The notes: generated by a model not told the origin, from the letters alone. A stretch of DNA of 64,000 nucleotides from Candidatus Falkowbacteria bacterium RIFOXYC2_FULL_36_12 (GCA_001778235.1 MFGJ01000001.1:5152-69151), one strand, 5' to 3'; numbered from the stretch's first letter, positions 14,225-54,791 are shown. Numbers and translations are program-made.

Positions 14225-14269
14225 ATATTGTTATTTGTTCATTAGAAGGTTGACCGCCTTAAGGTCAAT

Positions 14270-14342
14270 GGGCCGCTAGCTCAGTTGGTAGAGCAGCAGA
14301 CTTTTAATCTGTTGGTCATCGGTTCGATTCCGATGCGGCTCA
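14270..14342 (+). tRNA. tRNA-Lys (anticodon TTT).
   Basis: Acceptor GGGCCGC/GCGGCTC, D-arm GCTCAGTTGGTAGAGC, anticodon loop CTTTTAA, T-arm ATCGGTTCGATTCCGAT. Confidence 0.85.
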
Positions 14343-14378
14343 CCCCATTTCTTCAAGAAGCCAAAAACAGGCTTCAAG

Positions 14379-14453
14379 GCTGGCATAGCTCAATGGTAGA
14401 GCAGCTGATTTGTAATCAGCCGGTTGAGGGTTCGATTCCCTTTGCCAGCTCCA
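14379..14453 (+). tRNA. tRNA-Thr (anticodon TGT), with an encoded CCA.
   Basis: Acceptor GCTGGCA/TGCCAGC, anticodon stem GCTGA/TCAGC with loop TTTGTAA, T-arm GAGGGTTCGATTCCCTT, 3' CCA present. Confidence 0.85.
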
Positions 14454-14467
14454 TTCTTTCGTCCATT

Positions 14468-14541
<74 letters not shown>

Positions 14542-14545
14542 CACT

Positions 14546-14662
14546 GGAGGAGTGGCCGAATGGTTGAAGGCGGCGGTCTTGAAAACCGCAGGTACGCAAG
14601 TACCCAGGGGTTCTCCGCCAAAGGACGGACTAGTCCTACGGCTAGGATTCCCTCCTCCTCCG
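14546..14662 (+). tRNA. tRNA-Ser (anticodon TGA)-like gene with an apparent ~32-nt insertion in the T-arm; possibly an intron-like element or a pseudogene.
   Basis: The 5' half is canonical class II: acceptor GGAGGAG, D-arm TGGCCGAATGGTTGAAGGC, anticodon stem GCGGT/ACCGC with loop CTTGAAA, and variable arm GGTACGCAAGTACC. The acceptor 3' strand CTCCTCC lies at 14655-14661. GGGGTTC and GATTCCCTC are separated by TCCGCCAAAGGACGGACTAGTCCTACGGCTAG, making the gene 117 nt rather than about 90. Confidence 0.5.
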
Positions 14663-14737
14663 CTCGTTTGAAGGAATTTCTAAGGGAGTAAATAAACTCC
14701 CCGGGAGATAACAGCCTAAAACTGGATCTCCCGAAAT

Positions 14738-14808
14738 TGGGGCGTCGTCAAGCGGTAAGACACAGGGCTTTGGTCCCTGCATCCTAGGTTCGAATCCTAG
14801 CGCCCCAG
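14738..14808 (+). tRNA. tRNA-Gln (anticodon TTG).
   Basis: U1-A72 acceptor TGGGGCG/CGCCCCA as in E. coli tRNA-Gln. Anticodon stem CAGGG/CCCTG with loop CTTTGGT. T-arm CTAGGTTCGAATCCTAG. Confidence 0.8.
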
Positions 14809-14837
14809 CATAAATGCTAGTCACAGCAGTGACTAGA

Positions 14838-36893: not shown

Positions 36894-37167
36894 CCCTGAA
36901 ATAAATTCAGGGTGACAAGTGAGAGATCCTGAAAACAGTACCCGGAGATCCTGAAACAAGTTCAGGATGACGAGTGTAGGGTTCAGGATGACGAGTGTAG
37001 GGTTTTTGATGACGAGTGGTGTGTGGTCCCGTCACTCTGAACTTGTTTCAGAGTCTCCTGAATTGACATTAGAGGAAGGAATGGAAAAATTAATTTGAAT
37101 TTTGAAGAATTATATCCTGAAACAAGTTCAGGATGACGAGTGTAGGGTTCAGGGTGACAAGTGTGGG
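36894..37167. repeat. Intergenic array of palindromic hairpin repeats: CCTGAAACAAGTTCAGG followed by (G/A)TGAC(G/A)AGTGTAGGG.
   Basis: Units such as ATCCTGAAACAAGTTCAGGATGACGAGTGTAGGGTTCAGGATGACGAGTGTAGGG appear in both orientations (CTGAACTTGTTTCAG). They are followed by the GC-rich hairpin GCCGACCCGTTGCCGAGCAGCGGGTCGGC. The same family lies inside the CDS at 53985..54238. Confidence 0.8.
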
Positions 37168-49317: not shown

Positions 49318-49626
49318 TTATTGTTTGTGATTTCGTTTTTCCATGAAATAATAAATAATTGCCCCGATTATACCAGTAAAAACTATAACCAAAATCCAGA
49401 CAGTCTGATTGTCTTTTTGATTTTTGATTGCATCGATTAGCATCCAAAGCCAAAAAACAAAAACTGCTCCAAAAATAACCACCATAATAACCGGTAAAAA
49501 CCAAATCCATGTTGGCATCTGATCACAAGGGACAACTTCGCCATTGAGAGTGCATGTTTGAGCCAGTACTGGGGAAGCAATAAGAAATGATGCGATTGCA
49601 ACAAATAAACTTTTTATAATTTTCAT
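49318..49626 (-). CDS. Small secreted/membrane protein (signal peptide plus two C-terminal TM).
   Basis: MKIIKSLFVAIASFLIASPVLA signal-like N-terminus. Hypothetical. Confidence 0.35.
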   Translation of the reverse strand: MKIIKSLFVAIASFLIASPVLAQTCTLNGEVVPCDQMPTWIWFLPVIMVVIFGAVFVFWLWMLIDAIKNQKDNQTVWILVIVFTGIIGAIIYYFMEKRNHKQ

Positions 49627-49636
49627 TTTTTTATAT

Positions 49637-49876
49637 TTATTTATTAGAATAAATTACTAAACCGATTATTACTACAAGAATAATAACTGAAACGATTATA
49701 ACGGCTGCTTTGGCTAATGGATTATTGGTCTCAATAGAGACTTTTTTTTCAAACTTGAACGATTTGTTCATAGGTTTATATTTATTTTTAATTAATATAT
49801 TTTTGAGTAAATCAGAATGTATCTTACTTTCACGACTAGCTGTAAACTGAAGAAACTCAACTAATTTGATGAACAA
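49637..49876 (-). CDS. Small C-tail-anchored membrane protein.
   Basis: 79 aa with a C-terminal TM (AAVIIVSVIILVVIIGLVIY). Hypothetical. Confidence 0.3.
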   Translation of the reverse strand: MFIKLVEFLQFTASRESKIHSDLLKNILIKNKYKPMNKSFKFEKKVSIETNNPLAKAAVIIVSVIILVVIIGLVIYSNK

Positions 49877-49888
49877 TTCTAAAGTTGA

Positions 49889-50827
49889 TTAAACCAAGGT
49901 TGTAATTGGTCGGCTCTGAACAATATAAAATTCTCCTCTTGCAAATGCCCATTCAATATCGCAAGGGAATTCATAATGTTCTTCTATGTGTTTACAAATT
50001 TCTGCGATTTCAAGTATTTGTTCTTCTGATAATTTCTGTTTACTACCCTTTTCTTCTACTAAATCTTGTTGTTCAGTATTATTCCTTTTTTGAACTATAT
50101 GCATTTTTTGGACTGAAATATTTTGATCAATAATTTTCATTGTTTCCTTGTCTACAACATATGAATCTGGTGTGACTAGACCACCAACGATTGCTTCTCC
50201 TTGTCCAAAGATTGCTTCAATTATCATCTGATTTTTATCTTGAGTAACTGGATGAACAGTAAAGGTAATTCCTGAAATTTCGCTGTCAATCATTTTTTGA
50301 ATAACGACTGCAACTGAAACTTTTTTATCTTTTAAACCTTGTTCAATTCGGTAATGAATTGCTCGAGGAGTAAAAAGTGAAGCCCAGCATTTTTTCACTG
50401 AATCTAATAAATTTTCATGATTAACAAATAAATAACTTTCTAGTTCACCGGCCCAGGAAGCTGTTGATGAATCCTCTGCTGTTGCACTACTACGAACTGC
50501 AACATATTTCGCATTGAGATCTGAAAAAGATTTTTCTATCTCCTGCGCTATATCATCAGGCATTGTTGCTCCTATAATAAGCGATTCAATAGTTTTCGAA
50601 GCATTGTCAATACTGTTTACATCATCAGAATTTGCTTTGTCCATTTGGGCGTCAATTTCTACATTGATATCTGTTACTTCAAGAAATTTTTCAAAACTAT
50701 TGGATAAAACTACAAAACCGTCGGGGACTGGTATGCTGTTATTAATCATCTCACCGAGCGATGCACCTTTGCCACCGGCAATTTTCACATCTGATTTATT
50801 TATTTTTTTTATTTTTTTACAAAACAT
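49889..50827 (-). CDS. PEP-synthase / pyruvate-phosphate-dikinase N-terminal nucleotide-binding (ATP-grasp, PPDK_N) domain protein.
   Basis: KIAGGKGASLGEM matches the VGGKGANLGEM motif of PEP synthase and rifampin phosphotransferase ATP-binding domains. It is a stand-alone 312-aa protein whose start lies 2 bp after the upstream gene's stop. Confidence 0.65.
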   Translation of the reverse strand: MFCKKIKKINKSDVKIAGGKGASLGEMINNSIPVPDGFVVLSNSFEKFLEVTDINVEIDAQMDKANSDDVNSIDNASKTIESLIIGATMPDDIAQEIEKSFSDLNAKYVAVRSSATAEDSSTASWAGELESYLFVNHENLLDSVKKCWASLFTPRAIHYRIEQGLKDKKVSVAVVIQKMIDSEISGITFTVHPVTQDKNQMIIEAIFGQGEAIVGGLVTPDSYVVDKETMKIIDQNISVQKMHIVQKRNNTEQQDLVEEKGSKQKLSEEQILEIAEICKHIEEHYEFPCDIEWAFARGEFYIVQSRPITTLV

Positions 50828-50829
50828 AT

Positions 50830-51759
50830 CTATATTGCGTCTATTTTTTTGGCCTTTATATTTTTAGCTTCCATATATTCTCCAGCTAATTTTTTTATCT
50901 CTTCTAAATCCAAATCAAATTTTTGTTCTGATCCATTTTCCCGTTTCAAAACAAAAGATACTTTTTTGTGGCCACTCATATCATTCTCGACAACTAAATC
51001 CCAGCTATCTAAAATCTTTAGACTGCCACCGATTTCTTCCAATGAATCCAAGCCGTGTTTGCCATTATCTTGGATTAACGCGTATTTGAGAAAGGCTTCA
51101 GTTGAAGTTTTATGCCCTGAACTAACCAAATCAATTACTCGCCCGCCAGGCATGTAATCTGGTAGATTCAGTAAACGATTAACTTTAAACGCCACACCCG
51201 TTGCATCAAATCTAGAGATCAAAACGCCACTCTTATCTTTTGCTTCATTGACTAACCAGTCAACTGATTCTTCTTCAGCATATTCCATGATTTCTTCCTG
51301 TTCGTCAGAACTTAATTGTTTAAAATTCGCATTAGGAAAATGTTCATTTATGTATTCTTTTTTGCGTTTATCCATCAGCTCCACATACTTTTTATTAATT
51401 TCCGGGTCAGCGTCAGCTTCATCAACTTCAGGAATTGGCAATTCAAAAAAAGCTGATGCTCCTTGTTTTTTTTGTAAAACTTTTATATCAATTCCTGCTG
51501 ATTCAAGAGCATGTCTCAAAGTTTCTTCGGTTCGGTCAATCTCTGTGGCATAGGCCCGATTTACTTTTCTATCAGTTAAATTTTTTTTGCCATATTGACC
51601 GGCCCGATCAATGCCACCAATTGATAAATTTGACAGCGACACCCCAGCTCCATCAAAAACATTGCCGGATTTTTTTTGGGAATGTCGGACAAAAGTAAAA
51701 GTAACCTTGGTGTTTTTACCGCGTTCTTGTTTTTCCGGGCCAAGTAATACTTCTTTCAT
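50830..51759 (-). CDS. Putative histidine-phosphatase-superfamily protein (phosphoglycerate-mutase-like).
   Basis: FTFVRHSQKKSGN fits the [LIVM]-x-R-H-[GS] phosphohistidine signature. A second His sits in the LVSSGHKTSTEAF context. It lies between the two dikinase-domain genes. Confidence 0.4.
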   Translation of the reverse strand: MKEVLLGPEKQERGKNTKVTFTFVRHSQKKSGNVFDGAGVSLSNLSIGGIDRAGQYGKKNLTDRKVNRAYATEIDRTEETLRHALESAGIDIKVLQKKQGASAFFELPIPEVDEADADPEINKKYVELMDKRKKEYINEHFPNANFKQLSSDEQEEIMEYAEEESVDWLVNEAKDKSGVLISRFDATGVAFKVNRLLNLPDYMPGGRVIDLVSSGHKTSTEAFLKYALIQDNGKHGLDSLEEIGGSLKILDSWDLVVENDMSGHKKVSFVLKRENGSEQKFDLDLEEIKKLAGEYMEAKNIKAKKIDAI

Positions 51760-51825
51760 AAAATTAATATTAAATTACTTAATTATTTATCCATAGCTCG
51801 AGTGACTCACAATGACAAGGTTTTT

Positions 51826-53172
51826 TTATTTTATTTTCCTTACTATTGAATTTTTTGTGTCCAATTCCACTAAATCTCCATCTTTAAATATTTCTGTCGC
51901 CGACTTTGTCCCAACTAAACCTGGTAATTTGAATTCCCGACAGACAATGGCTGCGTGGCAGGTAATACCACCCTCATCAGTAATTACTCCAGCAGCTTTT
52001 TTCAAGGCAGGGAGCAAATTTGGTCTGGTCATTTCCGTGACAATGATTTCGCCGCCTTTCATTTTCTTAATTTTTTCATTATGATTCCCAGCATCTTTAT
52101 ATGACAAAACTAACACCGGCCCGCTGACTTTACCGGAGGATACTGCAAATCCTTTTAATTGATCTCTTGATTTTTCATTCGCTTGGCCTGTTAAAATTTT
52201 CAATTTGTCTTCAGCTTCTTGCCCCCAATAGGTTTTAATTTTCTTTTGCTGATAAATTTTTAAACATCCTGTTAACCTTTTTTTAAGTTCGTCTCGACTT
52301 AGTTTTTTCGCTTTTCCAAAAAGTAGATTCTTTAATTCTGAGTAGAAATACAGCCGGCCATCGTCAGGCATCAAACCTACTCGCTCGTAAATTAAACTCA
52401 ATAGATAATCAAACCAAATCATCCCCGGCATATAAGTTAAGCGAATTTGATATCTTCTAAATTTTATCCGTGTCAAACTATCAATTATTTTTTTTATTTT
52501 TTCATTCGGATTTAATTGATTCATCAAATCAACTTTTTCCCGAATATCATTCTTCCCCTTCTCAAATAATTGCCCTTCATTTAAAAGTTCTTTCCAGTTT
52601 TTTGTTTGCTTCAAAACTTCGGTATATGACTGCGACATGAGCGGAGACGCCTCATTATAAATGAACTTTTTTTCGCTCAACAGCACCGTATCAATCGATT
52701 CGTTAATGTCTGCCACATTTTTGGTCGTTAACCACTCTTTGAGGTCATTTTCCAAAACACAATATTTATACTCATCTATAAAACTATAAACCACTACAAA
52801 CTGATCAAAAATTTCAAAATGTTTTTCAAAACGCAACCAAAGTTCTTGGTGATTCATAATCTCAAAATCAAGGTGCGCCATGTCTTTTATCAACAAAAAA
52901 TAATTGCTGATCGCCTGTTCCACTGCTTTTTCTACCAGCTGAATATTTTTTGCTTTAACAAAATATACCCGACCAAAATTTTCTGCCCGCGCCAATTCTT
53001 CTTCGGGCAAATACCATTCTGCATAATTCTTCTTTTGGTACATGGCTGACTGATTCGTCCCGAAACCAAACCTCTTTTGGCTTTTTTCACCTGTGGCTCT
53101 CAATATATTCCCCAAGTCAGCCAGCAGCAACCCTTCTTCTAACCACACTTTTATCCACTTAAAGTTTTTCAT
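51826..53172 (-). CDS. PEP-utilizing-enzyme mobile (phosphohistidine swivel) domain protein with a ~340-aa N-terminal putative substrate-binding region.
   Basis: The C-terminal GGITCHAAIVCREFKLPGLVG matches the GG-TSHAAI-ARE phosphohistidine-domain motif of PEP synthase, PPDK and rifampin phosphotransferase. Its start overlaps the MurE-like stop by 4 bp. Confidence 0.6.
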   Translation of the reverse strand: MKNFKWIKVWLEEGLLLADLGNILRATGEKSQKRFGFGTNQSAMYQKKNYAEWYLPEEELARAENFGRVYFVKAKNIQLVEKAVEQAISNYFLLIKDMAHLDFEIMNHQELWLRFEKHFEIFDQFVVVYSFIDEYKYCVLENDLKEWLTTKNVADINESIDTVLLSEKKFIYNEASPLMSQSYTEVLKQTKNWKELLNEGQLFEKGKNDIREKVDLMNQLNPNEKIKKIIDSLTRIKFRRYQIRLTYMPGMIWFDYLLSLIYERVGLMPDDGRLYFYSELKNLLFGKAKKLSRDELKKRLTGCLKIYQQKKIKTYWGQEAEDKLKILTGQANEKSRDQLKGFAVSSGKVSGPVLVLSYKDAGNHNEKIKKMKGGEIIVTEMTRPNLLPALKKAAGVITDEGGITCHAAIVCREFKLPGLVGTKSATEIFKDGDLVELDTKNSIVRKIK

Positions 53173-54791
53173 TGTTTTTTCAATAATTTTCTAACAACTT
53201 CTCGATCATCCCAAGGAATATATTTTCCGCCGGCAACGGCCATAGCTCTTTCTGAACCTTTGCCCGTGAGTAGGACTAAGTCTCCTGCCTGTGCCAAACT
53301 TAGGGCTCTTTCGATGGCGGAACGGCGGTCAAGAATTTTAAATAGATTTTGATTTTCAATTTTGCCCTTTTCGATAGCTCCGTCAGCAACTTGATTAATA
53401 ATAGTCTGCGGATCTTCATCATAAGGATCTTCATTGGTAACAATTACAATGTCAGCTTTGGATCCAGCCATGTTTCCAAGAATTGGACGGCGAGCTTTGT
53501 CTCGACCTCCGCCACAAGAACCGAGGACATGAATCAATTTTTTATAAGGCAAATCTGAATTTTTAATTTGATCCAAAGTTTCATAAAGTTTTTTCATGGA
53601 ACCTGGCTCTGGAGCATAATCGACCATAATTGAAAAATTTTGGCCTTGATTAATTAGCTCTGTGCGACCTGGAACAACTGGAACAGATTCAAGGGCTGAT
53701 TTAATTTTTGTTATTTCAATTCCTTCTTGTGTAGCAATTGCAATGGCTGGCAGAGAGTTTTCAACATTGAAGGCGCCGATGAGTTGTAAGTTGATAGTTG
53801 TTAGATTATAGTTGAAAGATGTGCCTTTGACTGAAACCTTAATGTCAGAAGCTTTGAAGTCGGCTTGCTTCTTTACGCTGAAGGTATTTTTTTTGTCAGC
53901 TGGGAAATTGAGAAAATATTCAGCGTGTTCATCGTCGATGTTTATAATTGAGATTTTTGGGATTGTTTTATTTTTATCATCATACCCTGAAACAAGTTCA
54001 GGGTGACAAGTGGGAGATCCTGAAACAAGTTCAGGGTGACAAGTGGGAGATCCTGAAACAAGTTCAGGATGACAAGTGTGGTGGGTGTGGAGTGTGCTTT
54101 GGGAAGTAGGTGTTTCAGGATGACAAGTGGGAGATCCTGAAACAAGTTCAGGATGACAAGTGTGGTAGGTGTGGAGTGTGCTTTGGGGAGTAGGTGTTTC
54201 AGGATGACAAGTGGGGTGTTCGGGGTGACAAGTGTGGGACTCTGACTGACAAGCGATAATATCCGAATAATTCTTTTTTGGCATTTTTGTCAGGTGTGAG
54301 AAGAATTTCCCTTTGGCTTTTTTATAATTTTCAAAACCGCCATGTGCCTCTATGTGCTCTGGAGTTAAGTTGGTAAAAACCGCATAATCATAATTTATTG
54401 CAATGTGCCGGTATTGTTCAACTCCTTGAGATGAAGTTTCAATTACAGCATATTTACAACCAGCATCAACCATTTTCTTTAGATATTTCTGAAGTTGAAA
54501 GCGACCGAGCATGGTCATTTTTTTATCATTTAATTTTTCTTCATTTGCTACCTTGAATAAAACTGTAGATAAAGCGCCAACTTTGTCTCCGCCAGCTTCA
54601 AGCGCTTTGGAAATAAGACTAACCGTAGTTGATTTGCCATTGGTGCCGGTAACTCCGATGACGATCATTTTATTGGAAGGATTACCATAAATAAAAGAAC
54701 CAAAAACCGCTAAACTCTTGTAATAAAACTGGAGTAAAAAATTGGGAATTAATTTTTTTATAAGATTTTTCATATAATTAAATACTATCAT
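53169..54791 (-). CDS. murE: Mur ligase family protein (MurE-like UDP-N-acetylmuramoyl-tripeptide ligase) carrying an in-frame ~85-aa repeat-encoded insertion.
   Basis: P-loop GVTGTNGKSTT, TPEHIEAHGGFENYKKAKGKFF, ISIINIDDEHA, GRTELINQGQNFSIMVDYA, and C-terminal DRRSAIERALSLAQAGDLVLLTGKGSE. The N-terminal domain is short (P-loop at residue ~50). Residues ~185-270 (HTCHPEHPTCHPETPTPQSTLHTYHTCHPELVSGSPTCHPE...) are encoded by the hairpin repeat array. Confidence 0.65.
   Translation of the reverse strand: MIVFNYMKNLIKKLIPNFLLQFYYKSLAVFGSFIYGNPSNKMIVIGVTGTNGKSTTVSLISKALEAGGDKVGALSTVLFKVANEEKLNDKKMTMLGRFQLQKYLKKMVDAGCKYAVIETSSQGVEQYRHIAINYDYAVFTNLTPEHIEAHGGFENYKKAKGKFFSHLTKMPKKNYSDIIACQSESHTCHPEHPTCHPETPTPQSTLHTYHTCHPELVSGSPTCHPETPTSQSTLHTHHTCHPELVSGSPTCHPELVSGSPTCHPELVSGYDDKNKTIPKISIINIDDEHAEYFLNFPADKKNTFSVKKQADFKASDIKVSVKGTSFNYNLTTINLQLIGAFNVENSLPAIAIATQEGIEITKIKSALESVPVVPGRTELINQGQNFSIMVDYAPEPGSMKKLYETLDQIKNSDLPYKKLIHVLGSCGGGRDKARRPILGNMAGSKADIVIVTNEDPYDEDPQTIINQVADGAIEKGKIENQNLFKILDRRSAIERALSLAQAGDLVLLTGKGSERAMAVAGGKYIPWDDREVVRKLLKKQ
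53985..54238. repeat. Hairpin repeat array (same family as 36894..37167) inside the MurE-like CDS, with the reading frame preserved.
   Basis: Three units of the 33-bp AGATCCTGAAACAAGTTCAGGGTGACAAGTGGG, then two 66-bp variants (…GTGTGGTGGGTGTGGAGTGTGCTTTGGGAAGTAGGTGTTTCAGGATGACAAGTGGG…). All unit lengths are multiples of 3. Confidence 0.85.

What the first reader, a model, noticed from the sequence alone, without database searches (positions are those of the whole stretch)
49889..53172. Three-gene operon encoding a split PEP-synthase / rifampin-phosphotransferase-like dikinase with an embedded histidine-phosphatase-like gene.
Gene 1 (51826..53172) ends in a phosphohistidine swivel domain (GGITCHAAIVCREF). 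Gene 3 (49889..50827) is a stand-alone PPDK_N ATP-grasp domain (GGKGASLGEM). These two are normally fused in PEP synthase, PPDK and rifampin phosphotransferase. Between them, coupled by a 2-bp spacer, lies a gene with the RHS/SGH signature of the histidine-phosphatase superfamily. The ~340-aa N-terminal region of gene 1 is unassigned and would be the substrate-binding module. The operon abuts murE. This looks like a phosphotransfer and dephosphorylation system of unknown substrate, which could be antibiotic or cell-wall related or a regulatory switch.
Basis: partly seen in the sequence, partly recalled or inferred. Interest (0 to 1): 0.6.

Follow-up and report, generated by a model that had tools for sequence, protein, structure and literature searches.

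The report
Split dikinase with partner histidine phosphatase
A candidate-phylum bacterium encodes an ATP-driven phosphate-transfer enzyme split over two genes, with a histidine-phosphatase gene between them. That phosphatase family sits beside the same phosphate-carrier domain in nearly every genome examined, so this looks like an undescribed kinase/phosphatase module whose substrate is unknown.

Summary
Three co-directional minus-strand genes follow murE in a Candidatus Falkowbacteria genome.

- **g3** (49889-50827) is a stand-alone PPDK_N ATP-grasp protein (Pfam E 6e-100). It resembles HpeI (PDB 9GOJ, E 5e-51).
- **g1** (51826-53172) ends in a phosphohistidine swivel domain with invariant His406. 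Its roughly 335-aa N-terminal region folds like the substrate-binding domain of rifampin phosphotransferase, not like the pyruvate-binding barrel of PEP synthase.
- **g2** (50830-51759) has a confident histidine-phosphatase fold. The catalytic residues R25, H26, R76 and H216 are invariant across the family.

Together, g1 and g3 form a two-component small-molecule dikinase, a kind already known from PpsAB, CreHI and HpeHI.

The new element is g2. Its family is small, and every named source is a candidate-phyla-radiation (CPR) bacterium except one bin labelled Gammaproteobacteria. In 18 of 19 non-redundant loci it lies next to a swivel-domain gene, even though the partner architecture differs:

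- g1-like gene plus PPDK_N;
- a single-chain rifampin-phosphotransferase-like protein;
- a free 109-aa swivel protein plus an orphan 360-aa protein.

The substrate is unknown. My best guess is that g2 removes a phosphate the dikinase installs on a small molecule. The main rival is that g2 dephosphorylates the swivel phosphohistidine itself, as SixA does for NPr.

The parts
49889..50827 (-). g3: stand-alone ATP-grasp nucleotide-binding component of the dikinase (PPDK_N, 312 aa), equivalent to HpeI/PpsB/CreI
   Evidence: Pfam PF01326 E 6.4e-100 covering 2-311 of 328 profile positions. NCBIfam matches cover only the N-terminal third of PEP synthase and rifampin phosphotransferase models. PDB: ATP-grasp of rifampin phosphotransferase 5hv6 E 1e-61; HpeI 9goj E 5e-51.
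50830..51759 (-). g2: HisPhosL, a divergent histidine-phosphatase-superfamily enzyme (309 aa). Catalytic R25/H26 at 51682-51687, R76 at 51532-51534, H216 at 51112-51114. Has a helical cap insertion at about residues 119-202.
   Evidence: AF2 pLDDT 87, pTM 0.85. The 50 best Foldseek PDB hits shown are all histidine acid phosphatases, PGM-like mutases or phosphatases, probability 1.00. Family profile vs PDB: 3r7a E 0.0023. R25, H26, R76 and H216 are invariant in 24 homologs and in essentially all of 124 representative clusters.
52168..53172 (-). g1 N-terminal region (residues 1-335): mostly helical acceptor-binding domain resembling the rifampin-binding domain of rifampin phosphotransferase. No Pfam family.
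   Evidence: No Pfam hit. AF2 pLDDT 90. Rifampin phosphotransferase structures are the only PDB entries matched beyond the swivel domain (TMq 0.48-0.52 for the best four). NCBIfam RedH model aligns g1 225-445 to its positions 657-876. Invariant E141, R240, R264, R299.
51826..52167 (-). g1 C-terminal phosphohistidine swivel domain (residues 336-448 plus stop). Catalytic His406 at 51955-51957 in GGITCHAAIV.
   Evidence: Pfam PF00391 E 1.4e-21, residues 372-440. PEP synthase 8a8e E 2.6e-19. H406 and the flanking motif are invariant in 21 homologs.
53169..54791 (-). murE, immediately upstream, with its stop overlapping the g1 start (ATGA). This is context, and probably the same transcription unit, not part of the module.
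   Evidence: NCBIfam murE E 2.5e-102. Junction sequence. murE-g1 adjacency is seen only in L001 among the related loci.

Best explanation
g3 and g1 form a two-component, ATP-dependent small-molecule dikinase of the rifampin-phosphotransferase / PpsAB / HpeHI type. g3 binds ATP. His406 on the g1 swivel domain attacks the beta-phosphate, giving AMP, Pi and g1-His~P. The swivel domain then delivers the phosphate to an unknown, probably polar or anionic acceptor held in the g1 N-terminal domain. g2 is a catalytically competent histidine phosphatase dedicated to this machinery. Through a phospho-His26 intermediate it removes the phosphate from the dikinase product, or from a downstream intermediate, so the module is a phosphorylate-then-dephosphorylate pair like HpeHI + HpeD. 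Shown: the domain identities, the intact catalytic residues, and the conserved genomic linkage. Inferred: the phosphotransfer chemistry (by homology), the target of g2, and the substrate.
For: Dikinase:
- g3 is a full PPDK_N and matches the stand-alone HpeI structure 9GOJ.
- g1 has the invariant GGxT[CS]HAA motif 42 residues from its C-terminus, as described for the rifampin phosphotransferase / HpeH family.
- Rifampin phosphotransferase is the only solved structure aligning beyond the swivel domain. The same result was reported for HpeH.
- Rosetta-stone fusions [g1-like][swivel][PPDK_N] exist: P0053, P0055, P0065.

g2 activity:
- The fold and the invariant R/H/R/H set support an active enzyme.

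Linkage:
- A swivel-domain gene lies next to HisPhosL, or is separated from it only by gene X, in 18 of 19 non-redundant loci. No other neighbour family is conserved.
- The same g1-like / HisPhosL / PPDK_N order recurs in L017 at only 26% HisPhosL identity.

Small-molecule target:
- Most characterised members of this superfamily act on small molecules (established knowledge).
- g2 has a roughly 85-residue helical cap like the acid phosphatases it best matches.
- HisPhosL is never fused to a swivel, X or PPDK_N domain among the ten longest representatives scanned with Pfam and the listed representatives (P0207-P0349) scanned with local profiles.
- A g1 ortholog on a contig that also encodes TFIIB (so probably archaeal) is overlapped by a HAD phosphatase instead.
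- The HpeHI cluster carries the HAD phosphatase HpeD, which acts on a phosphorylated intermediate.
Against: - No enzyme that would act between the phosphorylation and dephosphorylation steps is conserved in the operon. Taken alone, the pair would be a futile cycle.
- HisPhosL proteins 44-50% identical to one another are paired with acceptor modules that show no detectable sequence similarity: g1N, X, and the middle region of a single-chain rifampin-phosphotransferase-like protein.
- Several loci carry two or more swivel proteins but only one HisPhosL (L005, L006, L013, L017).
- Both points fit better with a target on the swivel domain itself.
- No substrate could be inferred.
- PPDK_N is within 6 kb in only 6 of 19 loci.
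Confidence: 0.4

Rival explanations
1. g2 acts on the carrier protein, not on a metabolite. It takes the phosphate from the swivel phosphohistidine (His406 to His26 transfer, then hydrolysis), or from the neighbouring regulatory Thr404. This would reset or throttle the dikinase, as SixA does for the phosphocarrier NPr and for Ndk. Alternatively it passes the phosphate on to a substrate of its own.
For: The only partner that stays constant across three architectures and down to 26% HisPhosL identity is the swivel domain. In the commonest arrangement HisPhosL directly precedes a free-standing 109-aa swivel protein, separated by a few bases. Clusters with several swivel paralogs have one HisPhosL. 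There is a precedent: SixA, from the same superfamily, dephosphorylates NPr by His-to-His transfer (PMC7948535) and also acts on the Ndk phosphohistidine (PMC12934123).
Against: g2 is twice the size of SixA and has a large helical cap typical of small-molecule enzymes. No HisPhosL-swivel fusion was found in the representatives checked. Hydrolysing the intermediate would waste ATP in an energy-poor organism.
Confidence: 0.3
2. The pair forms a polymer-directed dikinase/phosphatase cycle analogous to plant glucan,water dikinase plus the SEX4/LSF2 phosphatases. g1/g3 would phosphorylate a polysaccharide or cell-envelope polymer and g2 would remove the phosphate after remodelling.
For: Fused homologs have the domain order [binding domain][His domain][PPDK_N]. 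From my own knowledge this is the order in glucan,water dikinase; I did not test it here. A phosphorylate-then-dephosphorylate cycle needs no third enzyme in the operon (PMC12892837). In the window the module follows murE.
Against: No carbohydrate-binding module was detected. The g1 N-terminal domain matches the rifampin-binding domain. The murE linkage is confined to Falkowbacteria. SEX4-type phosphatases have a different fold.
Confidence: 0.07
3. This is an ordinary split PEP synthase (ppsA) or a rifamycin-resistance phosphotransferase, and g2 is an unrelated housekeeping phosphoglycerate-mutase-like gene that happens to lie between the halves.
For: The best NCBIfam names for g3 and the g1 C-terminus are PEP synthase and rifamycin phosphotransferase. 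The g2 profile weakly hits phosphoglycerate mutases.
Against: No PEP-utilizers_C / pyruvate-binding domain is present in any of the three proteins. All NCBIfam scores are far below the family cutoffs, for example the rifamycin phosphotransferase model at 282 vs 999 bits and PEP synthase at 340 vs 598. The g2-swivel adjacency is conserved in 18 of 19 loci, which excludes chance placement. g2 scores below the Pfam His_Phos_1 threshold.
Confidence: 0.05

Closest known systems
Two-component small-molecule dikinases HpeHI, CreHI and PpsAB (phenylphosphate synthase)
   Same: The ATP-grasp protein (HpeI/PpsB) is separate from a protein carrying a rifampin-phosphotransferase-like binding domain and a C-terminal swivel His domain (HpeH/PpsA). 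The genes are neighbours. The GGxT[SC]HAA motif lies near the C-terminus. g3 matches HpeI 9GOJ at E 5e-51. As with HpeH, rifampin phosphotransferase is the only solved structure matched beyond the swivel domain.
   Different: g1 is 448 aa, whereas HpeH is 71 kDa (about 650 aa). The binding domain is about 335 aa, with no sequence match to PRK08296/PpsA-type N-terminal regions and with invariant Arg/Glu residues. The host has a small, CPR-type genome and the locus has no aromatic-catabolism context. A histidine-phosphatase gene lies between the two components. The partner phosphatase in the Hpe cluster is a HAD enzyme (HpeD), and a carboxylase acts between kinase and phosphatase.
Rifampin phosphotransferase (RPH-Lm, PDB 5FBS/5FBT/5HV1)
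   Same: It has the same three functional modules: ATP-grasp, helical substrate-binding domain, and swivel His domain. It gives the best structural match for g1 and a strong sequence match for g3.
   Different: It is a single chain with the order grasp-binding-swivel. Here there are two chains, and the fused relatives are circularly permuted (binding-swivel-grasp). The NCBIfam rifamycin phosphotransferase cutoffs are not reached. There is no evidence for rifamycin binding.
SixA (phosphohistidine phosphatase of the histidine-phosphatase superfamily)
   Same: It has the same superfamily and RHG catalytic histidine. It acts on a phosphohistidine carrier of a PEP-utilizer-type relay by His-to-His transfer. 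g2 is genomically tied to such a carrier domain.
   Different: SixA is a minimal core of about 160 aa with no cap (own knowledge). g2 is 309 aa, with a helical cap and a C-terminal beta subdomain. A protein substrate for g2 is untested.
Glucan,water dikinase with SEX4/LSF2 phosphatases
   Same: A dikinase with a phosphohistidine domain works together with a dedicated phosphatase in a phosphorylation/dephosphorylation cycle. The domain order of the fused g1-g3 homologs matches that of glucan,water dikinase (own knowledge).
   Different: No carbohydrate-binding modules are present. The phosphatase fold differs (dual-specificity vs histidine phosphatase). The host is bacterial with a small, CPR-type genome.

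Membership tests
Two-component rifampin-phosphotransferase-like small-molecule dikinase (PpsAB/CreHI/HpeHI) | Stand-alone ATP-grasp (PPDK_N) component | tested here: met
   g3: PF01326 E 6.4e-100, 312 aa, no other domain. HpeI 9GOJ E 5e-51.
Two-component rifampin-phosphotransferase-like small-molecule dikinase (PpsAB/CreHI/HpeHI) | Second component ends in a swivel domain with the catalytic His in GGxT[SC]HAA, within about 50 residues of the C-terminus | tested here: met
   GGITCHAAIV, His406 of 448. Invariant in 21 homologs. PF00391 E 1.4e-21.
Two-component rifampin-phosphotransferase-like small-molecule dikinase (PpsAB/CreHI/HpeHI) | Acceptor-binding domain homologous to the rifampin-binding domain, N-terminal to the swivel domain | tested here: met
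   Foldseek: rifampin phosphotransferase entries E 7e-11 to 5e-10, TMq 0.48-0.52, against about 0.2 for swivel-only hits. Residue-level alignment was not available, and the domain is smaller than in rifampin phosphotransferase or HpeH.
Two-component rifampin-phosphotransferase-like small-molecule dikinase (PpsAB/CreHI/HpeHI) | ATP to AMP + Pi + phospho-acceptor via a phosphohistidine intermediate | not testable with these tools
   This is a biochemical property.
PEP synthase (pyruvate, water dikinase) | C-terminal PEP/pyruvate-binding TIM-barrel domain (PEP-utilizers_C) | tested here: not met
   No such Pfam hit in g1, g2 or g3. NCBIfam PEP_synth models match only positions about 3-337 (g3) and 325-460 (g1), at scores far below the cutoffs.
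Rifampin phosphotransferase (resistance enzyme) | Single-chain enzyme reaching the NCBIfam equivalog cutoff NF041857 | tested here: not met
   g3 scores 282 bits and g1 52.6 bits against a cutoff of 999. The enzyme is in two chains.
Histidine phosphatase superfamily (branch 1, PGM-like) | Alpha/beta/alpha core fold | tested here: met
   AF2 pLDDT 87. The 50 best Foldseek PDB hits shown are all superfamily members, probability 1.00, E down to 3e-7, TM 0.4-0.5.
Histidine phosphatase superfamily (branch 1, PGM-like) | Catalytic RH(G/S) histidine plus two Arg and a second His | tested here: met
   R25, H26, R76 and H216 are invariant in A1. Across 124 representative clusters they are present in 112/112, 112/112, 115/116 and 119/122 ungapped sequences.
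Histidine phosphatase superfamily (branch 1, PGM-like) | Pfam PF00300 gathering score | tested here: not met
   g2 scores 12.6 bits against a cutoff of 21.7. Some family members carry a precomputed PF00300 hit, and P0240 scores 22.1 bits. So g2 is a divergent member, not an excluded one.
Histidine phosphatase superfamily (branch 1, PGM-like) | Identified proton-donor Glu/Asp | tested here: inconclusive
   Candidates are E221 (80 of 124) and the acidic cap helix E159/E162/E163. The geometry was not examined.
SixA-type phosphohistidine phosphatase | Minimal core of about 160 aa without a cap domain | tested here: not met
   g2 is 309 aa, with three long cap helices (119-202) and a C-terminal beta subdomain.
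SixA-type phosphohistidine phosphatase | Dephosphorylates a phosphohistidine on a carrier protein | not testable with these tools
   Only genomic linkage to swivel-domain genes was shown.

The most novel reading that the evidence does not exclude
HisPhosL is a dedicated protein-directed partner of swivel phosphocarrier domains. Under this reading, CPR bacteria and DPANN-like archaea run an ATP-driven, PTS-like phosphohistidine relay. A stand-alone PPDK_N protein plays the role of Enzyme I. Free or fused swivel modules play the role of HPr, and some are attached to sensor-like, rifampin-phosphotransferase-like or HTH domains. The orphan X protein is a new acceptor or catalytic domain. HisPhosL is the SixA-like reset, or the terminal phosphotransferase.
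Probability: 0.25. Interest if true: 0.8.

Novelty: new variant of a known kind. Interest (0 to 1): 0.55.

Why it matters
Two-component dikinases have been characterised only in aromatic catabolism by free-living bacteria. Here the same machinery appears in small, CPR-type genomes and in DPANN-like contigs, with a smaller, Arg/Glu-lined binding domain. It is tied to a histidine-phosphatase family that curated profile libraries do not confidently recognise.

The conserved HisPhosL / free swivel / X triad has no described counterpart: X matches no Pfam, NCBIfam or PDB sequence. If g2 acts on the swivel phosphohistidine, it would be a second bacterial example, after SixA, of enzymatic control of a phosphocarrier, and it would point to an ATP-fuelled phosphorelay in organisms thought to have minimal regulation. 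If g2 acts on a metabolite, the module marks an unknown phosphorylated intermediate in CPR metabolism.

Either way, three small soluble proteins make this directly testable in vitro.

Tried and rejected
- **X versus the g1 N-terminal domain.** I tested whether the 360-aa X protein of related loci is homologous to the g1 N-terminal domain. hhalign gave probability 0.2%, so this was rejected at sequence level.
- **Identity of X.** X has no Pfam or NCBIfam family and no PDB sequence match.
- **Fusions of HisPhosL.** I looked for HisPhosL fused to swivel, X, g1N or PPDK_N among the long representative proteins. None was found.
- **Possible distant relatives beside g1 homologs.** I tested whether unknown proteins next to archaeal-type g1 homologs (L028 477 aa, L030 347 aa, L011 244 aa) are distant HisPhosL relatives. 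The motifs line up (IRHS, SSNEARALATA, GFGHENY; ISRHG, EDIGG), but hhalign, HMMER and PDB searches are not significant. This is kept as a lead only. The wide HMM was badly built (910 match states) and is uninformative.
- **Anti-phage defence.** No PADLOC hits.
- **Promoter and terminator scan.** Matches were at chance level.
- **murE link.** Not conserved outside Falkowbacteria.
- **The 107-aa ORF between g2 and g3 in L001.** It has no counterpart in the window or in L014.
- **Literature.** Searches found no description of a swivel-domain / histidine-phosphatase module.
Full report
**Source and layout**

The window comes from Candidatus Falkowbacteria bacterium RIFOXYC2_FULL_36_12, according to the names attached to identical proteins. 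G+C content is about 35% throughout.

On the minus strand the gene order is:
- murE (53169-54791);
- g1 (51826-53172, 448 aa);
- g2 (50830-51759, 309 aa);
- g3 (49889-50827, 312 aa);
- two small membrane-protein ORFs;
- then, after a gap, rpoB.

The murE stop overlaps the g1 start (ATGA). g1 and g2 are 66 bp apart, and g2 and g3 are 2 bp apart. Promoter-like and terminator-like matches are at chance level. The only suggestive terminators flank the block, at 54836-54817 and 49232-49219.

**g3**

g3 is a complete PPDK_N ATP-grasp domain and nothing else: PF01326 at E 6.4e-100, covering profile positions 2-311 of 328. NCBIfam models of PEP synthase, rifamycin phosphotransferase and PigC/RedH match only their N-terminal roughly 330 positions, well below the family cutoffs.

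Against solved structures, g3 matches:
- PEP synthases;
- 9goj (E 5e-51).

9GOJ is HpeI, the stand-alone ATP-grasp component of the two-component dikinase HpeHI.

**g1**

The C-terminus of g1 is a PEP-utilizers swivel domain (PF00391, E 1.4e-21, residues 372-440). The catalytic histidine, His406, lies in GGITCHAAIV, 42 residues from the end. This motif is invariant in 21 homologs. It matches the description of the rifampin phosphotransferase / HpeH family motif.

The first roughly 335 residues have no Pfam family. An AlphaFold2 model built on the family alignment is confident (pLDDT 90, pTM 0.86). Foldseek against the PDB returns rifampin phosphotransferase as the top six hits. The best four reach E 7e-11 to 5e-10 with TMq 0.48-0.52. 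Every other hit (pyruvate kinase C-terminal domain, PPDK, Enzyme I) covers only the swivel domain, at TMq about 0.2. The same pattern was published for HpeH.

At sequence level, the RedH and PRK06241 models extend about 110 residues upstream of the swivel domain. There is no PEP/pyruvate-binding TIM barrel, so this is not a split ppsA.

Proteins P0053, P0055 and P0065 fuse a g1-like protein to a C-terminal PPDK_N. This is Rosetta-stone evidence that g1 and g3 work together. The fused order, binding domain then swivel then ATP-grasp, mirrors the gene order in the window.

Invariant E141, R240, R264 and R299 in the N-terminal domain suggest a polar or anionic acceptor rather than a hydrophobic one. 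This is inference.

**g2**

Pfam gives only a sub-threshold His_Phos_1 hit (E 0.11), and phmmer against the PDB finds nothing. Three further lines of evidence establish the assignment:
- The alignment of 24 homologs has invariant R25-H26 (RHSQK), R76 (xxRTxET) and H216 (GHKTSTE), which is the canonical catalytic set.
- The AF2 model is confident (pLDDT 87), and the 50 best Foldseek hits shown are all histidine acid phosphatases, phosphoglycerate/bisphosphoglycerate mutases, TIGAR, RosC, GpgP and similar proteins, at probability 1.00.
- The family profile hits phosphoglycerate mutase 3r7a (E 0.0023) and TIGAR (E 0.014), aligned through the RH and Arg motifs.

An exhaustive profile search of 1.84 billion representatives finds only 359 clusters at E ≤ 1e-3. 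Every hit or locus that carries an organism name is from a candidate-phyla-radiation (CPR) bacterium, except one bin labelled Gammaproteobacteria. Across 124 representatives the four catalytic residues are essentially invariant, so the family is under selection for catalysis.

Relative to the minimal fold, g2 has a helical cap of about 85 residues (helices 119-140, 151-171 and 181-202, including a conserved acidic stretch) and a C-terminal beta subdomain.

**Comparative genomics: the main new result**

I collected loci encoding g2 relatives from GTDB genomes, metagenomes and contig look-ups. I then mapped five profiles onto them: HisPhosL, g1N, swivel, X and PPDK_N.

After removing duplicates there are 19 loci. 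In 18 of them a swivel-domain gene is the immediate neighbour of HisPhosL, or is separated from it only by gene X. The exception, L015, is a contig that begins 250 bp upstream of the gene. All-against-all clustering of the neighbouring ORFs finds no other conserved family.

Three architectures occur:
- **(A) The commonest.** HisPhosL, then a free-standing 109-aa swivel protein, then a roughly 360-aa protein "X". The genes are separated by a few bases or overlap. Found in L002-L010, L013, L018, L019, L022 and L026. A PPDK_N gene is close by in L009 and L013.
- **(B)** A g1-like gene, HisPhosL, then PPDK_N. Found in the window, L001 and L017.
- **(C)** A single-chain rifampin-phosphotransferase-like protein of 764-772 aa, followed by HisPhosL. 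Found in L014 and L024.

X has no Pfam, NCBIfam or PDB match and no detectable similarity to g1N. It is fused behind a swivel domain in ten proteins, so X too is a direct partner of the carrier.

The window's HisPhosL is 48% identical to a type-A member, 44% to the type-C member, and only 26% to the other type-B member, L017. The partner architecture has therefore changed repeatedly while the link to the swivel domain was kept. HisPhosL itself is never fused to any of these domains among the representatives checked.

**g1 relatives without HisPhosL**

g1-type proteins also occur on contigs that appear archaeal. One source record is named 'archaeon' (P0058, L011), and L029 also encodes TFIIB.
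- L029: the g1 ortholog is overlapped by a HAD-family hydrolase, followed by an HD-domain protein.
- L028 and L030: a PPDK_N gene, then a protein carrying IRHS ... SSNEARALATA ... GFGHENY motifs, then a g1-like gene. L030 has three further swivel paralogs.
- L011: four g1-like paralogs, three of them with N-terminal HTH_17/MerR domains.

The motif-level resemblance of the L028/L030 protein and of L011_244 to HisPhosL is not statistically supported. I treat it as a lead only.

**Mechanism**

By homology with PpsAB, HpeHI and rifampin phosphotransferase:
1. g3 presents ATP.
2. His406 of g1 attacks the beta-phosphate.
3. The gamma-phosphate is released as Pi.
4. The swivel domain carries the remaining phosphate to an acceptor bound in the g1 N-terminal domain.

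This part is well supported (about 0.85), although no chemistry was tested.

The role of g2 is the open question. I favour a small-molecule phosphatase acting on the product or on a later intermediate (0.4), for these reasons:
- most of this superfamily acts on metabolites;
- g2 has a large cap;
- g2 is never fused to the phosphotransfer domains;
- a HAD phosphatase takes its place beside an archaeal-type ortholog;
- the characterised HpeHI cluster includes a phosphatase, HpeD, that removes the phosphate after an intervening carboxylation.

Against this:
- no intervening enzyme is conserved here;
- closely related HisPhosL proteins accompany unrelated acceptor modules;
- several loci have multiple swivel proteins but one HisPhosL.

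Those three facts favour the main rival (0.3): g2 takes the phosphate directly from the swivel phosphohistidine (or from Thr404). SixA, from the same superfamily, does this to NPr by His-to-His transfer and also to Ndk.

A cycle like that of glucan,water dikinase and SEX4 on a polymer remains possible but has little support. An ordinary ppsA, a rifampin-resistance enzyme, or a coincidental neighbour are effectively excluded.

**Novelty and verdict**

The split dikinase is a new member of a described subfamily (PMC12167813). The dedicated, CPR-associated histidine-phosphatase partner and the HisPhosL / free swivel / X triad are, as far as the searched literature shows, undescribed. I classify the finding as a new variant of a known kind, with interest 0.55.

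The substrate is unknown. The cell-wall and antibiotic suggestions are not supported by conserved context.

Noticed in passing
window 53986-54234 (inside murE) and 36895-37138: murE carries an in-frame tandem array (33-nt and 84-nt periods, 97-98% matches) encoding repeated CHPELVSGSPT... peptides. This makes the protein about 77 aa longer than its L001 ortholog, which has a single CHPELVSGS copy at the same site. The same 23-mer (CCTGAAACAAGTTCAGGATGAC[AG]) occurs three times at 36895-37138, against 0 expected by chance. It looks like a REP-like palindromic element that has expanded inside a coding sequence, splitting the Mur_ligase_M domain.
   Followed up: partly
L002:7233-8297, L009:7162-8238, L010:7159-8223, L013:6188-7270 and proteins P0169-P0206: There is an orphan family 'X' of about 360 aa that has no Pfam, NCBIfam or PDB match. 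It has invariant N120, D163, G174, Y176, W202, H231, W309 and P311. It is always encoded beside a free swivel domain and HisPhosL, and it is fused behind the swivel domain in ten proteins. It may be a new acceptor or catalytic domain for phosphohistidine transfer.
   Followed up: partly
L011 679-9153 (contig from a record named 'archaeon', JBDRNU010000025): Four g1-like paralogs are clustered here. Three carry an N-terminal HTH_17/MerR-type DNA-binding domain in front of the rifampin-phosphotransferase-like and swivel domains, which suggests phosphohistidine-linked transcription regulators.
   Followed up: no
L029 4001-6530: On a contig that also encodes TFIIB, a g1 ortholog (448 aa) is overlapped by 13 nt by a HAD-family hydrolase and followed by an HD-domain protein. 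A phosphatase of a different fold occupies the place of g2.
   Followed up: partly
L028 2532-3965; L030 2384-3966; L011 9231-9965: These proteins lie between PPDK_N and g1-like genes. They carry IRHS / SSNEARALATA / GFGHENY motifs in histidine-phosphatase order, fused to or preceded by a coiled-coil region. L011_244 has ISRHG and an EDIGG...ERKN tail resembling the HisPhosL C-terminus. The similarity is not statistically significant.
   Followed up: partly
L011 5253-6008 and L027 3198-3983: A family of 251-261 aa (38% identical, no Pfam) sits directly upstream of g1-like genes. It has an N-terminal GCYGGxRGTT loop that loosely recalls Cys-based phosphatase P-loops. It was not tested.
   Followed up: no
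proteins P0064, P0069, P0074, P0075, P0083, P0086, P0088: These proteins of 676-781 aa each contain two swivel (PEP-utilizers) domains; two of them are named in their source records as Patescibacteria or Moraniibacteria.
   Followed up: no
window 14269-14809: This is a tRNA cluster (Lys-TTT, Thr-TGT, Pro-TGG, Gln-TTG). Rfam also reports a 117-nt tRNA match at 14546-14662 (38 bits) that ARAGORN does not call. It may be an intron-containing or otherwise atypical tRNA.
   Followed up: no
window 49318-49876: Two small membrane-protein ORFs lie directly downstream of g3 on the same strand: 79 aa with one predicted TM segment, and 102 aa with a PLDc_N domain (E 2.6e-9). A terminator-like hairpin follows at 49232-49219, so they may be co-transcribed with the module.
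   Followed up: no
L017 3749-4192: An acylphosphatase gene follows the g1-like / HisPhosL / PPDK_N trio in this distant relative of the window's operon.
   Followed up: no
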